From positions 14,752,001-14,816,000 of the forward strand of contig CP068257.2 in NCBI GenBank assembly GCA_009914755.4: DNA of 64,000 bases, given 5' to 3'. Shown one piece after another: positions 16,910-33,063 of this stretch (its first letter is position 1; every line of letters begins with the position of its first letter). Source of the stretch: the human T2T-CHM13v2.0 reference genome, Homo sapiens. The notes under the pieces were generated by a model. It did no database searches. It saw only the letters and a list, made by a program, of their open reading frames with translations, and was not told the DNA's origin. The translations under genes were made by a program, and so were the position numbers.

Positions 16910-17689
16910 AATTTTCTGCATGGAATATCTGTTTATTCTCTGTATGTTTATTGTTTATTCATCTAATCATTTACTTACATCAGTATGGATTCATGGATAT
17001 TTATTTTATACTTGGGTTATCAACCAATACTACTTTACTTTGTTGTTTAAATTGTTTCAGCATTAGTAATTGGGACTTCTTTCAGCTGTCACTTATATGC
17101 TTTTTTTAAATATCCCACCATTGTTTATTTTTATTTTATTTTTTAGCACTTACTTTCTTTGTGGCACTATGCTCCAGGTCCACCTTATATATTTCTTGTC
17201 AAGTCCTAGAATCAAGCATTTCTCTAAGGAGTCCTAGTGTCTTTGATTGGAGAATGGTATTAGAAACTAATATCTGGTTTCTAGGTATGCTCACTTCCAC
17301 GGTGCTGTCATTGCTTCTAGACCTTCTCAGCTGACAGAACATGAACATAGATTTATTTTGATCTTCTTTAATTTTTTTATCAGTGTTTTGTAGTTTTGCA
17401 CATATACATGCCATACATATTCTGTTACATGTATATCTAAGTACATAATGTTTAGATTCTATTATGAATAATATTTTTAAAATTTCAAAAGTCAAGTGTT
17501 TATTTCTGGTAAAGGGGAAAGCATTTGACTGTTGTGTATTAAGCTTGTGTCCTAAAACCTTGCCAAATTGGCTTTTTTTTTTTTAATTTCTTTGGGATTT
17601 TCTATATAGACATATCATGTGTGACTAGACAGTTTTATATATTCCTTTCCAATATTTATGTTTCATTTCCTTGTCTTGTATTATTTCAT

Positions 17690-18370
17690 CAGCTAGGACT
17701 GCTGGTATGATGCTGAATAGGAGCAGTGACAGGGAACATCCTTGTCTTTTCTCTGTCTTGGGGGAGAGTATCTAGTTTCTCACTGTTAGGTATGATGCTA
17801 GTAGCTATTTTGTAGATGTTCTTCATCAATCTGAAGATGTTCTCCTCTATTTTTAGTTTGCTAACAGTTTTTATCCTGCTTGAGTGTTGGATTTTGTGAA
17901 ATGTTGTGTCTTGTGTCAATTGATATGATCATATTTTGTGTTGACTTTCAAAAATTGAACCAACCTCGCATATATGAAATAAAGACCACATGGTCTTCGG
18001 GTATAATTATTTCAATACATTGCTAAATTATACTGGCTAATGTTTTATTAAGGATTTTTATGTCTACCTCCATGAAGGATAAGGGTGTACAAATTTCCTT
18101 TCTTGTAATATATTTATCTAATTTTGGCATTAGGAGTAATGCTGGCCTCATTCAATGCGTTAGAAAGCGTTCCTCTGCTTTTATGTTTTGGAGGGGATTA
18201 TGGGAAACTGATGTGAGTTCTTCCTTAAATATTTGGTAGAACTCACCTGTGAAACCATTTGGATCCAGTGGTTTCTTTGGGGAAAGATTATGAATTATTA
18301 TCTCAACTTATTTTAGATATATGGCTGTTCGTGTCATCAATTTCTCTGTGTGTGTTTAGATTGTTCTTAA
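17690..18370 (-). mobile_element. Old L1 (L1M/L1PB-like) ORF2 fragment
   Basis: The + strand resembles the antisense of L1 ORF2 (tgaataggagcagtgacagggaacatccttgtcttt...tagtttgctaacagtttttatcctgcttgagtgttggattttgtgaaatg...ggcattaggagtaatgctggcctcattcaatgcgttag). It is more diverged than the L1PA copy. Confidence 0.7.
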
Positions 18371-28812: not shown

Positions 28813-31800
28813 CAATTGTAGATGTATTCAGATAGCATGACATTTGAAAAAGTTGATGGAGAGAAAATTCCTACTGAAGTGTGTTATAGATATCTCTAAA
28901 ACATCTTTGGTTGTCAGGAAATGAATCAATGATATAGAAACAAACAATGATTTGTAATCTTGGCAGATAAACAGAGAAATAATCAGTTCAGAATATTTAT
29001 GGAATGATAACATTTTCCTGTTGATATATTTTTGTGCCAACAAATTTAATTTGGAAACTGGTATTTGTTACTAGAAGGCAGTAATCAATTTTGGTAATCA
29101 GTAGTTTTAAATGCTTTATTCAAGACCAAGGGCTGATTTATTGAATGAATAGGTCTTAGATAAAATGTAAGCTATTGGGCCAACCCATATCTGGAATTTG
29201 TTTTTATTTTCAATACCCAAGTCATTAAGTGTAAATGTAATAGTATTTGCATATTTTCAACTTTCAGATTAGTCATGTCTACCTTTGAAATTTGTTTTCT
29301 CCTTAGATAAGTAACTTATGAGTAATCAAATATCTTGCAATTTCCATTTTCCATCTTAAAGCCCGTGCAAGATCAAATTTGCAGTTGCTAAATCACATAA
29401 AAGTCTGGATTAATAGCAAAATGAGATTATGTAGCCCAAAATGAAATTATAAATAAAGTGCAGGTGTTTGCTAGGATTTGTGTGGTCAGATATACAAATA
29501 GAATCACAGGTAGAGTTTCTCATTTCTCACTTGAGAAAAGTGCAATTAAAAGTAATTTCCAGATGTTCAAATGCACAGCTGCTTTCTCCTAAACTAAATT
29601 TTGCAGAAATGAGCTAAATTATAATGGGTTTAAAAGTCACTACGTTTTAATGGTTTTTAAATTGAATTTGAAACATCATTACTAGGTTTACCAGATGAAG
29701 AGAGTTAATGCTTATGAGTACCTGGTACAATTTTCATTTAGGTGGCAGCAGAGCCATTAACGTATTGGAAATTATAATAAGACCAAAACTTACATTGGGT
29801 TTGAAAAAATTGATTAGTATGTGTGTTGATACACTCCATGCCTTTATGAGATTTATATTATATACTCTATGACACTATGAAAGTTATTCAGCTATAGGTG
29901 AAAGAAACGTGTGTATATGTTCATAAAATGGTATGTGTGGGGGGGAGGTGTGGGTGTGTATGTGTGAAAGAGATTTTTACATTTTCTTTGCCTAATGAAA
30001 AGGAAAATAGCAAGAATAAGATGCAAGTACACTGTTTGAAATATGCAAGTCTATTAAATTGTTTTTACATATCAAATTATAAGCAATGACTATGAACCTA
30101 CATATCTGTAATATCAACTTAAAAAAATCCATCTATTTTACTCAGAGTTACTTACATGCCCAATAGCAATAAGCTACTGTCATAAATATTATCCCATTAA
30201 GTAAAGTCCTGTTCTTGACTAAGTTTTCTTGGGCTTGAAATAGGCTTTTCTTTGCAGCCAGGAATAGCCAAGTTTTTTCTAAAACTCTTACGGGAAGGCG
30301 TGTGGATGGTTAAACGAGGAATGGGAGGTAAAAAGTGGGGGCATTGCATTGGAATAGAGAATTAAAGAGCTTTTACCCTACGTAAGCTCAGAAATTTATC
30401 ATTAAACAATCCATTAGTATTTCCACAACAGTTTTCAAAGCGCACTGCTGAAAGAATTTCAAAAATTTGACCTTGGAAGTGATTAGAAAACTGACGCATT
30501 AGTTTTGAGTATGATGGTAGAACACTTTATCCTATGTACGACGTTCTTTCAAGTGATTGACTCGTGCCCTTGAAAGCATTATCCATGGCCAGTGATTGAT
30601 GGACTTGTTCAGGTCCTATGCAGAGTGCTTCATATATCTCATCTCAATCCTCTAAATAACCATGAAAGTTGATGATTATCTCATGGTACAGATGGGAGGC
30701 TAAGAGTGTTTAATTTTCCCCAAGTTCCAGTGCTAGTAAGTGTTGATGTCTGGATCTGAACCTGTGTTAATGGTGTTTCTAGTCGATGCTGTTATCTGTT
30801 GCACCACATTTTGAATAATCTTGGACTTTCAGAGTATGAAGGACGATTAAATATAACCCTTTGGTATAAATGTTCTCTCTCTCACTCCTCTGTAACAATT
30901 GGAGAAACAGAGTTCTAACAATATTAAAATCAGCCATAGACAGAGAGTAGTGAGAAATATACTTTTTTTAATACAGAAGGTTCCCTGAAGTACTTTTAGT
31001 ATTATTCTAAATTAAGCAATAACCAATGAACAATTTTGGTCATAAGCAGTTTCTCTCCAGAAAAAAAAAAAAAAAAAAACAGATAATATCCATGAACAAA
31101 GGTTCTATAATGTGAGTCTCTTTTGCACATCAGTGGCTTAAAATAATGAGTAGTGGAATAGCATAATAGGGGGAAATACCTCTCAGACAGGAAATTGCAC
31201 TAGCTTGTTTTGTCAACATATACATTACTATACCCAGAGACATACAAGAGTTAGAGACTCACGGTGAGTTTTCACTGTGGCCATCTGTGCCATCCCGTGC
31301 AGGACTCTACTGTGGCATTCCACAAAAGCAAATCCTCAGAAGCCTTCTCAAAGTGCTTAACTGCCTTGAAACAGGTGTTTCTCACTAGACAACAATGTCC
31401 GTTTACTTTAAAATTCAGAATTTCCCCATATCACATGCTTGTGAAGAAAGAAATTTGAACTCTATTATAGTCTAGTTGTTGGCAATTGTTATAAAAATTA
31501 GATTTCTAACCTCTATTGATAGCACTATACTTGAAATGAGAATGTGGGCATAAAATACTTCTTATAAACTTGTTTTTAAGTTTTATGTAATGTTGGCTGT
31601 TACAGGTCAAGATATGAACACTGAAAATTTTGGGCCAAAGTCACTTTTTCAACACTGGCCCATTTGAGTTGTTGATTTTAGAGCTGGGATCATTGAATGT
31701 TATTTTTTCATACCTTTATTTTATGCAACAGAAAATGAAGGCTTAAAGAGGGAAAAATGGCCTTTCTGCTCATGGTCATAATACTAGCGCCTGGAGAGTT

Positions 31801-33063
31801 GGCTTTGATCACAGATTTTCCTTCCAGTTTTCTATTCCTTCATTTATATAAGGCCATTTACCCTCTAAATCATTTACATCTAGTTATAAAATATCTTTTT
31901 CTTTTCCTAAAACTTTAGTAGTACAGAAATACAATTGAAGGAGATTTGGCTTCGTTGGTAAATGTAGAAATAACTAATAAGAGGTATTGAATATAAACTT
32001 ACCCATAAGTTATTGTTTCTGTAAATGCACACGATTAAAATGTCTAGTTTGTAATTTCATTCTTGATGTATATTCTAGGGCACGCTGACATTTTAAAGAA
32101 TTTTGTTGAAACGCCCACTGAGCGTGCTTTCTGAAAAATGAAGATTATCTTTTGTTTTTTTTCTTTTTTATGAGCTTTAAAAAGTTTTAAATAAAAGTTT
32201 CTAAGATGCATGATTCTTAAGCATACATCTGGATGAATGTCTTACATATGCATCCATATGTAGTTATAAACATTCGTACATCTTCTCCCAGATACCAGAA
32301 TATAAAAATTTCAGCACTCCTTAGGACTCTCTCATCCCCCTCTGACACCTGTCACCATATATATTAGGTTTACCAGTCTTTGATTTCATATAAATAGAAT
32401 TGCACAGTATGTATATATTTTTGTCTGGCTTACGTTACTCAATATTTTGTCCATGTGATTTTCCCATCTTGCATATATTGGTTGGTTGTTCTTTTTTGCT
32501 TTGCAGTATTTATTTGTGTGATTATGGCACAATTTTAATCTATTGTGCTGTGTTAGTACACTCGTTGGGTGTTTTCAGATGTCTGTTTACATAATTTTTT
32601 AAATGCAGAACTGGTACCAAAAATATAGTAGTCAGTTGTTTTCTTTAATAGATGAAATATAAAACTAGAATCACTTTAATTAAAGTACTACAGGCAGTTA
32701 TTGCTTTACATGGTCCCATGCTAACTGAAATTCATTTATATTTGAACTCTGAAAAGTGATAACTCAGTATTTCTGAGTTATCTATGAAAAAAAATCCTGG
32801 AAAAAAGAATTAGTATGTGTTATCCTAAGTAGATGCTGAAGAACCAGTCCTGCAATATTTAAACTTTATCATCACCCATTTGCTCCTGTTATTTATTACA
32901 TATATACAACTGTAATTATAGTTTGGACCAAATATCCATGTAGTTAAACTCAGTTGTCACTTTATTTTCTAAAACTCCTTCTGGATGGCAAAAATTTTCT
33001 GGTTTAAAGCAAAATAATTAAGCCATTGCGTTTTACATAGGATAGTTAGGGATGATTCTTAAA

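What the first reader, a model, noticed from the sequence alone, without database searches (positions are those of the whole stretch)
17000..33050. ~16-kb stretch almost free of Alu/L1 insertions and enriched for retained CpGs within AT-rich DNA
Between the L1M fragment ending ~18.4 kb and the AluY at 33.06 kb I see only an old MaLR LTR and an Alu-monomer fragment, whereas the flanks carry Alu/L1 every 1-3 kb. In the same interval CpGs are unusually frequent for ~35-40% GC human DNA, by eye about 12-20 per kb in several sub-regions versus a handful per kb in neighbouring unique sequence. Examples are cgtcgtctgcgtttttacgatttt at ~23.33 kb, catcgtgcgcgcaatt at ~24.14 kb, a cluster at 27.1-28.1 kb, gtacgacgttc at ~30.54 kb, and gcacgctga...aaacgcccactgagcgtgc at ~32.08 kb. 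Depletion of retroelement insertions together with retention of CpG is the usual signature of constrained, often developmental, non-coding regulatory DNA (established generalisation). Its application here is inference.
Basis: partly seen in the sequence, partly recalled or inferred. Interest (0 to 1): 0.5.

Follow-up and report, generated by a model that had tools for sequence, protein, structure and literature searches.

The report
Repeat-poor non-coding stretch retaining CpGs
A stretch of primate (human-like) non-coding DNA with few transposon insertions really does keep about twice as many CpG sites as its surroundings in three or four short blocks, which fits regulatory DNA, but this is a well-known kind of region and its conservation across species could not be tested here.

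Summary
CpG observed/expected (o/e) is 0.24 in 17.0-33.05 kb against 0.15 in repeat-masked flanks (ratio 1.6-1.8, P about 1e-5). All of the excess lies in 22-32.5 kb, in blocks at 22.0-24.4, 27.0-28.3, 30.2-30.9 and about 32.0-32.4 kb, with 10-16 CpG per kb. The first 5 kb and 28.3-30.2 kb are at background. No window meets CpG-island criteria.

The Alu/L1 gap is real (no Alu between 16,893 and 33,096). It is not significant on its own (P about 0.2-0.3). The flanks also hold 7-kb and 10-kb Alu/L1-free stretches. The interval still contains an old LTR-like repeat, an Alu-monomer fragment, a MIR and an old L1 fragment.

I found no coding exon, no known RNA family, no retrocopy hallmarks and no homeodomain-motif enrichment.

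No vertebrate sequence could be retrieved, so constraint was not tested.

The best reading, at about 0.45, is a cluster of non-coding regulatory elements whose CpGs are protected by selection and/or germline hypomethylation. The main rival is neutral local heterogeneity.

This is a known kind of region and of low interest.

The parts
16598..16912 (+). Alu that forms the left boundary of the Alu-free gap
   Evidence: blastn against an AluY consensus written from memory: 16599-16893, 77.5% identity, E 4e-60. Self-similarity to the other Alus.
17285..18262 (-). Old L1 fragment (reverse-transcriptase region, antisense on the + strand).
   Evidence: 59% identity over 1053 bp to a recalled L1HS 3' portion, E 7e-54. 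CpG o/e of 17-22 kb is 0.146, which is background.
20565..20893 (+). The family name rests on memory only.
   Evidence: 69-76% identity to a recalled consensus, E 1.5e-40.
20894..28664 (.). 7.8-kb stretch in which I could recognise no transposon-derived sequence
   Evidence: No hit to the Alu, MIR, L1 or LTR consensuses, and no self-similarity in the window. No transposon protein remnants. There was no RepeatMasker/Dfam run, so old repeats may have been missed.
22000..24399 (.). CpG-retaining block A, the strongest one. It contains the GC peak of the interval (22625-22824, 55.5% GC).
   Evidence: 31 CpG, 12.9/kb, o/e 0.385. It holds the best 1-kb and 2-kb windows of the whole repeat-masked window (P 1e-4 and 5e-6). 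No CpG-island window. Two CCGGAA, E-boxes and an inverted CCAAT are read directly from the sequence.
23157..23321 (+). Possible intron on the + strand: donor ctag|gtaagg at 23157/23158, and acceptor (pyrimidine tract) ...cttaaag|GAATAC at 23320/23321. This is inference only.
   Evidence: Read from the sequence. About 2 such donor matches are expected by chance in 16 kb. The 31-aa frame after the acceptor has no relative among 1.84 billion proteins.
24400..26999 (.). Very AT-rich (26.5% GC) unique stretch with mildly raised CpG o/e
   Evidence: 11 CpG, o/e 0.241. The 2-kb window 25551-27550 has o/e 0.43, P 2.5e-4.
27000..28299 (.). CpG-retaining block B
   Evidence: 13 CpG, 10/kb, o/e 0.365. 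It holds the best 500-bp window of the repeat-masked sequence, 27101-27600, o/e 0.76, P 2.4e-4.
28665..28824 (-). Old Alu-monomer-like fragment with a T-run at 28641-28652
   Evidence: 62-68% identity to six Alus of the window over 133-149 aligned bases, best E 4e-10. It lies in the background-CpG gap 28.3-30.2 kb (o/e 0.104).
30200..30899 (.). CpG-retaining block C
   Evidence: 11 CpG, 15.7/kb, o/e 0.43. The 500-bp window 30101-30600 has o/e 0.55, P 1e-3. It contains TGATTGAC and TGATTGAT, one occurrence each, which is not an enrichment.
30610..30762 (+). MIR element inside block C
   Evidence: 65% identity over 176 bp to a recalled MIR consensus, E 4e-8.
31951..32450 (.). Minor CpG-retaining block D, including the inverted repeat gcacgct...agcgtgc at 32080-32128
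   Evidence: 7 CpG, o/e 0.59, P 2.4e-3. The hairpin is no more stable than shuffles, z -0.97.
32390..32577 (-).
   Evidence: 60% identity over 196 bp to a recalled old-L1 consensus, E 4e-7. The same consensus hits the window's L1 ORF2 ends at 13643-13961 and 46866-47162.
33056..33392 (-). Young Alu (AluY-like) with a 39-T tail. It forms the right boundary of the gap.
   Evidence: 92% identity to AluY over 288 bp, E 1e-118. T39 at 33064-33102.

Best explanation
Between about 22 and 32.5 kb lies a repeat-poor, non-coding stretch. It contains three to four blocks of 0.5-2.4 kb in which CpG sites have decayed less than in the surrounding DNA.

The most likely cause is that these blocks are cis-regulatory elements: enhancer-like or weak CpG-poor promoter-like sites, possibly with a non-coding transcript starting near 22.8-23.2 kb.

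The mechanism is inferred, not shown. Methylated CpG mutates to TpG/CpA roughly ten times faster than other sites. A CpG is therefore kept when the site is occupied by factors and poorly methylated in the germ line, or when CpG-to-TpG changes in binding sites are removed by selection. Insertions of Alu or L1 into or between such elements would be selected against, which would leave the 7.8-kb transposon-free core and the wider Alu/L1 gap.

What is shown: the CpG excess and where it lies, the repeat map, and the absence of coding sequence, CpG islands and known RNA families. What is inferred: function, constraint, and any link to a developmental gene.
For: CpG o/e is 0.244-0.259 in the interval against 0.145-0.150 in the flanks. 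The quasi-Poisson z is 4.8-5.9 with no overdispersion in the flanks, and 6 of 16 interval 1-kb bins reach o/e 0.35 against 0 of 41 flank bins. From those counts, a hand-computed Fisher P is about 2e-4.

At window sizes of 500, 1000 and 2000 bp, the three best CpG windows of the whole repeat-masked 64 kb all lie in 22-32.5 kb.

The excess holds against other Alu/L1-free flank stretches, so it is not a by-product of being repeat-free. TpG/CpA excess is lower in the blocks (1.15) than in the flanks (1.22) or in the background gap (1.30), which fits less decay.

The strongest blocks sit inside the longest stretch without a recognisable transposon, 20894-28664. Recognised repeat content is 7% in 18.4-33.05 kb against 30% in the flanks.

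No stop-free frame of 41 aa or more has a protein relative. There is no Rfam family.

Transposon-poor regions and clusters of conserved non-coding elements are documented features of vertebrate genomes (PMC2241635, PMC5728398).
Against: Cross-species conservation, the defining test, was not possible.

The effect is modest: o/e is 0.37-0.43 in the blocks, each resting on 11-31 CpGs.

The repeat gap alone is compatible with chance (P 0.21-0.30).

TAATTA and other developmental-factor motifs are not enriched.

Block boundaries were chosen after looking at the data.

The flank background comes from only 48 kb of one locus.
Confidence: 0.45

Rival explanations
1. Neutral local heterogeneity. The blocks differ from their surroundings in germline methylation level, mutation rate or past GC-biased gene conversion without having any function, and the Alu/L1 gap is a chance gap in AT-rich DNA.
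For: The gap is not significant. Other 7-kb and 10-kb Alu/L1-free stretches occur in the same window. A similar CpG-high 500-bp window occurs outside the interval at 61151-61650, o/e 0.61. There is no motif enrichment. CpGs are not clustered beyond their density. Block A coincides with a GC spike of 55.5% in a background of about 30%, as gene conversion could produce.
Against: Three to four separate high-o/e blocks fall within 10 kb, while none of 41 flank bins reaches o/e 0.35. There is no PRDM9-type motif in the interval. The blocks coincide with the transposon-free core.
Confidence: 0.3
2. The signal is mainly a non-coding transcription unit on the + strand. It would have a CpG-poor promoter near 22.6-23.0 kb, a first exon ending at 23157, and a second, long AT-rich exon from 23321 to AATAAA signals near 24.35 kb or beyond. 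CpGs would be kept because of promoter hypomethylation and constraint on the RNA.
For: The GC peak carries two CCGGAA, E-boxes and an inverted CCAAT. A good donor (tag|gtaagg) and a pyrimidine-rich acceptor lie 164 bp apart, and AATAAA occurs at about 24349 and 24374. The TA skew of the whole repeat-masked window is +5% (z 8.7), and all L1 pieces are antisense to the + strand, as expected if the + strand is transcribed.
Against: Every one of these signals is expected by chance in 16 kb of AT-rich DNA. There is no Rfam lncRNA family. The skew spans the whole 64 kb and could equally be replication-related (PMC2817419). This reading does not explain blocks B-D.
Confidence: 0.12
3. The CpG-richer blocks are younger inserted sequences, such as 5'-truncated retrocopies of mRNA 3' ends, that have had less time to lose CpGs.
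For: Pure A-runs lie just downstream of two blocks: A15 at 22903-22917, preceded by ATTAAA, and A21 at 31059-31079. A T16 run lies at 23757-23772.
Against: No target-site duplications were found by two searches. There is no protein homology in any long frame. There is no second copy in the window. Block B has no tail.
Confidence: 0.06
4. One or more blocks are protein-coding exons of a gene whose other exons lie outside the window.
For: The acceptor at 23320 is followed by short open frames of 14-31 aa. Exons shorter than 41 codons were not covered by the searches.
Against: There were no relatives for 5,910 aa of stop-free frames from the interval, for 4,721 aa from the flanks, or for the 31-aa frame after the acceptor. 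No Pfam domain was found in the two longest frames.
Confidence: 0.03

Closest known systems
Transposon-free regions (TFRs) of vertebrate genomes (Simons et al.; PMC2241635)
   Same: This is a long stretch of unique, mostly non-coding DNA that has escaped Alu/L1 insertion. A core of about 7.8 kb has no recognisable transposon, which would place it in the size class of the 9,203 human TFRs of 5 kb or more.
   Different: The 16-kb interval as given is not transposon-free (LTR-like repeat, Alu monomer, MIR, L1 fragments), so it is not one of the 856 human TFRs of 10 kb or more. Absence of old repeats in the core was not checked with RepeatMasker. Orthologous TFRs and gene association are unknown.
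Clusters of conserved non-coding elements / genomic regulatory blocks (PMC5728398)
   Same: The DNA is AT-rich and non-coding, depleted of transposons, and has discrete sub-kb to kb blocks that look protected from decay.
   Different: Conservation itself is untested. TAATTA is not enriched. No target gene is known.
Low-methylated regions at distal regulatory elements (own knowledge: Stadler et al. 2011)
   Same: These are CpG-poor regions that are nevertheless less methylated because factors bind them. Over evolutionary time this would leave a modest CpG excess like the o/e of about 0.4 seen here.
   Different: No methylation data could be consulted. This is a proposed mechanism, not a demonstrated state.
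CpG islands
   Same: Local CpG o/e is above the genome background.
   Different: No 200-bp window in the interval has GC of 50% or more together with o/e of 0.6 or more. The high-o/e windows have 26-31% GC and only 4-8 CpGs.

Membership tests
Transposon-free region (TFR) >= 10 kb | At least 10 kb with no annotated transposon-derived sequence | tested here: not met
   Repeats lie inside the interval at 20565-20893, 28665-28824, 30610-30762 and 32390-32577. The longest repeat-free stretch found is 7.8 kb.
Transposon-free region (TFR) >= 5 kb | At least 5 kb with no annotated transposon-derived sequence | tested here: inconclusive
   20894-28664 has no match to recalled Alu, MIR, L1 or LTR consensuses, no self-similarity and no transposon protein remnant. 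No Dfam/RepeatMasker run was possible, so old L2, MIR or DNA elements may have been missed.
Transposon-free region (TFR) | Orthologous region also transposon-free in other vertebrates, and association with a transcription or developmental gene | not testable with these tools
   No vertebrate genome or gene map was available. The window holds no detectable coding exon.
Conserved non-coding element cluster / genomic regulatory block | High sequence identity to orthologous DNA of distant vertebrates | not testable with these tools
   Protein-space and DNA-pattern searches of protein, viral, metagenome and prokaryote collections returned nothing.
Conserved non-coding element cluster / genomic regulatory block | AT-rich elements enriched in TAATTA (homeodomain core) | tested here: not met
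   AT-richness is met (32% GC). TAATTA occurs at 1.10/kb in the interval, 1.05/kb in the flanks and 0.47/kb in the CpG blocks.
Conserved non-coding element cluster / genomic regulatory block | Depletion of transposable elements | tested here: inconclusive
   Recognised repeats cover 7% of 18.4-33.05 kb against 30% of the flanks. The gap in young insertions has P 0.21-0.30.
CpG island | At least 200 bp with GC >= 50% and CpG o/e >= 0.6 | tested here: not met
   Windows meeting the criteria occur only in the HERV9-like part and in Alus, and none lies within 17000-33044 (the first qualifying window is 33045-33250, over the AluY-like boundary element at 33056-33392). The maximum GC is 55.5% at 22625-22824, in a block with o/e of about 0.35.
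Protein-coding exon | An open frame with relatives among known proteins | tested here: not met
   No hit at E <= 0.01 for any stop-free frame of 41 aa or more in 18.4-33.05 kb. There was no hit for the 31-aa frame after the 23320 acceptor. Exons shorter than 41 codons are not excluded.
Known structured RNA family (Rfam) | A match at the family's gathering score | tested here: not met
   There were 0 matches in the window. At E <= 5 there were only five chance-level hits, all far below threshold.
Processed retrocopy | Poly(A) tail plus flanking target-site duplication plus a parent gene | tested here: not met
   A-runs are present at 22903 and 31059, but no duplications were found and no protein homology. 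A non-coding parent could not be searched.

The most novel reading that the evidence does not exclude
The 22-28.3 kb core could be kept free of insertions and partly protected from CpG decay without being alignable to distant species. [quoted passage not shown] An example would be an unannotated + strand non-coding transcription unit whose promoter near 22.6-23.0 kb is hypomethylated in the germ line.
Probability: 0.1. Interest if true: 0.35.

Novelty: already known. Interest (0 to 1): 0.15.

Why it matters
If the blocks are regulatory, they are candidate enhancers or a non-coding promoter in a gene-poor, AT-rich region, and variants in them could affect a distant gene. That would be useful locally but not surprising. 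Repeat-poor, CpG-retaining non-coding stretches are a documented class with thousands of human examples, and public conservation, methylation and chromatin tracks would settle this locus in minutes. The main value of this check is calibration. The by-eye CpG impression was directionally right and statistically robust. However, it was overstated in density, the signal covers only part of the interval, and the repeat gap by itself carries little evidential weight.

Tried and rejected
1. Orthologous DNA through protein space. Translations of stop-free frames from the blocks (1000 aa) and from the rest of the interval (4910 aa) were searched against 5.8 billion proteins and gave no hits. The collection evidently does not hold spurious ORFs from vertebrate non-coding DNA.

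2. The same chimeric query against viral and metagenome contigs gave no confirmed match. Exact 25-26-mers from the most CpG-dense sites gave 0 matches in metagenome and prokaryote genome contigs.

3. Mapping the locus through a locus-specific L1 ORF (284 aa): not on record.

4. Coding exons in the flanks (4721 aa of frames): none.

5. Rfam at gathering and at permissive thresholds gave nothing meaningful, and no tRNA genes were found.

6. The 32.08-kb inverted repeat as an RNA hairpin: z -0.97, rejected.

7. Retrocopy idea: no target-site duplications.

8. Fine-scale CpG clustering: not significant.

9. Transcription-factor motif enrichment, including TAATTA, Pbx-Hox, Sox, Fox and Oct: none.

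10. PRDM9 hotspot motif: none in the interval.

11. CpG-island scan: none in the interval.

They behaved as expected on the window's obvious copies, but they do not replace RepeatMasker.

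
Full report
**What the window is.** The window is AT-rich DNA from a catarrhine primate, human-like. It has 34.6% GC, 393 CpG and an overall CpG observed/expected (o/e) of 0.205. Several repeats identify it:
- Alus, up to 92% identical to AluY.
- L1 pieces 92-94% identical to a recalled L1HS 3' portion.
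- A pogo/Tigger-like transposase remnant (Pfam DDE_1 and CENP-B_N).
- A HERV9/LTR12-like element at the start, with a 32-bp unit repeated 15 times.

**CpG observation.** Per-kb CpG counts in 17-33 kb run from 3 to 15.
- With Alus and the LTR12 element masked, the interval has o/e 0.244 against 0.150 in the flanks (ratio 1.63, P 8e-5).
- With every repeat I could recognise masked, the values are 0.259 against 0.145 (ratio 1.79, P 2.6e-5).
- Flank 1-kb bins behave as Poisson (dispersion 1.04). This gives z = 4.8 for the whole interval and 5.9 for 22-33 kb.
- Six of 16 interval bins reach o/e 0.35, against none of 41 flank bins.

The excess is not spread over the 16 kb.

| Segment (kb) | CpG count | CpG per kb | o/e |
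|---|---|---|---|
| 17-22 | 20 | 4.0 | 0.146 |
| 22.0-24.4 | 31 | 12.9 | 0.385 |
| 24.4-27.0 | 11 | 4.2 | 0.241 |
| 27.0-28.3 | 13 | 10.0 | 0.365 |
| 28.3-30.2 | 5 | 2.6 | 0.104 |
| 30.2-30.9 | 11 | 15.7 | 0.43 |
| 30.9-33.05 | 13 | 6.0 | 0.232 |

A scan at 500, 1000 and 2000 bp puts the three best windows of the whole repeat-masked 64 kb inside 22-32.5 kb each time. The density is 10-16 per kb rather than 12-20, and about 60% of the stated interval carries no signal. CpGs are not more tightly clustered than their density predicts. The quoted strings are simply the two densest spots. No window meets CpG-island criteria.

**Repeat observation.** No Alu lies between 16,893 and 33,096. The recalled 2.6-kb 3' portion of L1HS has no match between 18,262 and 46,620. 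Nothing inside 16,912-33,056 resembles anything else in the window at E 1e-6.

The interval does contain old repeats:
- An old L1 at 17,285-18,262.
- An LTR-like repeat at 20,565-20,893.
- An Alu-monomer-like piece at 28,665-28,824, and a MIR at 30,610-30,762.

The longest stretch without any recognisable repeat is 20,894-28,664 (7.8 kb).

The gap is not statistically compelling. With 13 Alus in 64 kb, a gap of 16.2 kb or more arises in 26-30% of random placements. With 17 young insertions, a 14.7-kb gap arises in 21%. The flanks do not carry Alu/L1 every 1-3 kb: 33.39-40.39 kb and 52.7-63.08 kb are also free of them. Those stretches have o/e of only 0.147 and 0.187, so the CpG excess is not a general property of repeat-free DNA here.

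**What is in the blocks.**
- Nothing coding was found. No stop-free frame of 41 aa or more in 18.4-33.05 kb has a relative among 5.8 billion protein clusters. The same holds for the frames tested from the flanks, stop-free stretches of 45 aa or more with at least 34.5% GC and outside recognised repeats.
- The 31-aa frame after a possible splice acceptor at 23,320 has no relative among 1.84 billion representatives.
- No Rfam family reaches threshold. Permissive hits are at chance level. No tRNA gene was found.
- The inverted repeat at 32.08 kb folds no better than shuffles.
- A-runs at 22,903 and 31,059 suggested retrocopies, but no target-site duplications exist.
- Block A holds the GC peak of the interval (55.5% at 22,625-22,824). 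It carries two CCGGAA, several E-boxes and an inverted CCAAT. These are followed by a good donor at 23,157 and a pyrimidine-rich acceptor at 23,320. This is suggestive of a CpG-poor promoter and a spliced non-coding transcript. Each of these signals is expected by chance at this scale.
- Motifs typical of developmental elements are not enriched. TAATTA occurs at 1.10/kb against 1.05/kb in the flanks. There is no PRDM9-type motif in the interval.

**Conservation.** This is the decisive test, and it could not be run. The collections reachable here hold proteins, viral, metagenomic and prokaryotic DNA. Six back-translated patterns and two exact 25-26-mers found nothing. A locus-specific L1 ORF is not on record.

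**Interpretation.**
- **Best-supported reading (about 0.45):** a repeat-poor non-coding stretch holding several regulatory elements. Their CpGs would be protected by germline hypomethylation at occupied sites and/or by purifying selection, with insertions selected against. A lower TpG/CpA excess in the blocks (1.15 against 1.22-1.30) fits reduced decay.
- **Main rival (about 0.3):** neutral local heterogeneity plus a chance gap.
- **Non-coding transcript:** about 0.12, and it overlaps the best reading.
- **Retrocopies:** about 0.06.
- **Short coding exons:** about 0.03.

**Comparison with what is known.** The closest classes are transposon-free regions and clusters of conserved non-coding elements.
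- The human genome has 856 transposon-free regions of 10 kb or more and 9,203 of 5 kb or more (PMC2241635).
- Clusters of conserved non-coding elements sit in transposon-depleted regulatory blocks. Those elements are AT-rich and TAATTA-enriched (PMC5728398).
- The interval fails the 10-kb transposon-free definition. Its core may meet the 5-kb one. The conservation criterion is untested and the TAATTA feature is not met.
- It is not a CpG island.

In kind this is already known, and public tracks would resolve it at once.

**Side note.** The TA skew of the repeat-masked window is +5.0% (z 8.7) and is positive in all sixteen 4-kb bins that show any skew (the last is 0.0). The GC skew is +0.9% and not significant. 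All L1 pieces lie on the minus strand. This would fit the + strand being the sense strand of a long transcription unit, so the window may be intronic. Replication-associated skew gives the same sign (PMC2817419).

Noticed in passing
window 1-1965: HERV9-like internal sequence followed by an LTR12-like LTR. The LTR carries 15.3 nearly perfect copies (98% matches) of a 32-bp unit (TCACAAAGTACCTTCTTAAGGGCGGGGGAATA) at 1255-1744. It accounts for the high GC and CpG of the first 2 kb. The family name is from memory.
   Followed up: partly
window 1-64000 (repeat-masked): T exceeds A on the + strand by 5.0% (z 8.7), positive in fifteen of the sixteen 4-kb bins and zero in the last, while the GC skew is only +0.9%. 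All five L1 pieces (13.4-16.0, 17.3-18.3, 32.4-32.6, 46.6-47.4 and 50.8-52.7 kb) and the Tigger-like element are on the minus strand. This suggests the + strand is the sense strand of a long transcription unit (the window may be intronic), or a replication-related skew.
   Followed up: partly
window 33393-40393 and 52700-63080: Two further Alu/L1-free stretches of 7.0 kb and 10.4 kb in the flanks, containing only MIR-like fragments. Their CpG o/e is at or near background (0.147 and 0.187).
   Followed up: yes
window 61151-61650 and 61449-61522: The only 500-bp window outside the interval with comparably high CpG o/e (7 CpG, 0.61). It overlaps a perfect 38-bp tandem duplication (1.9 copies, 100% match).
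   Followed up: no
window 5380-7500, minus strand: Remnants of a pogo/Tigger-like DNA transposon (Pfam DDE_1, E 1e-10 and 4e-8; CENP-B_N, E 7.5e-5), interrupted by an Alu at 6748-7059.
   Followed up: yes
window 10944-11171: A purine-rich (GGAA/GAAA)n microsatellite of about 230 bp. Tandem repeats are sparse inside the interval (2 weak arrays in 16 kb) compared with the flanks.
   Followed up: no
window 22903-22917, 23757-23772, 31059-31079: Pure homopolymer runs (A15, T16, A21) in otherwise unique sequence, two of them just downstream of CpG-retaining blocks. No target-site duplications were found, so their origin is unexplained.
   Followed up: partly
window 63247-63608: An LTR-like repeat, 74% identical to a recalled THE1/MST-type consensus. 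Its long open frames (up to 148 aa) have no Pfam match.
   Followed up: partly
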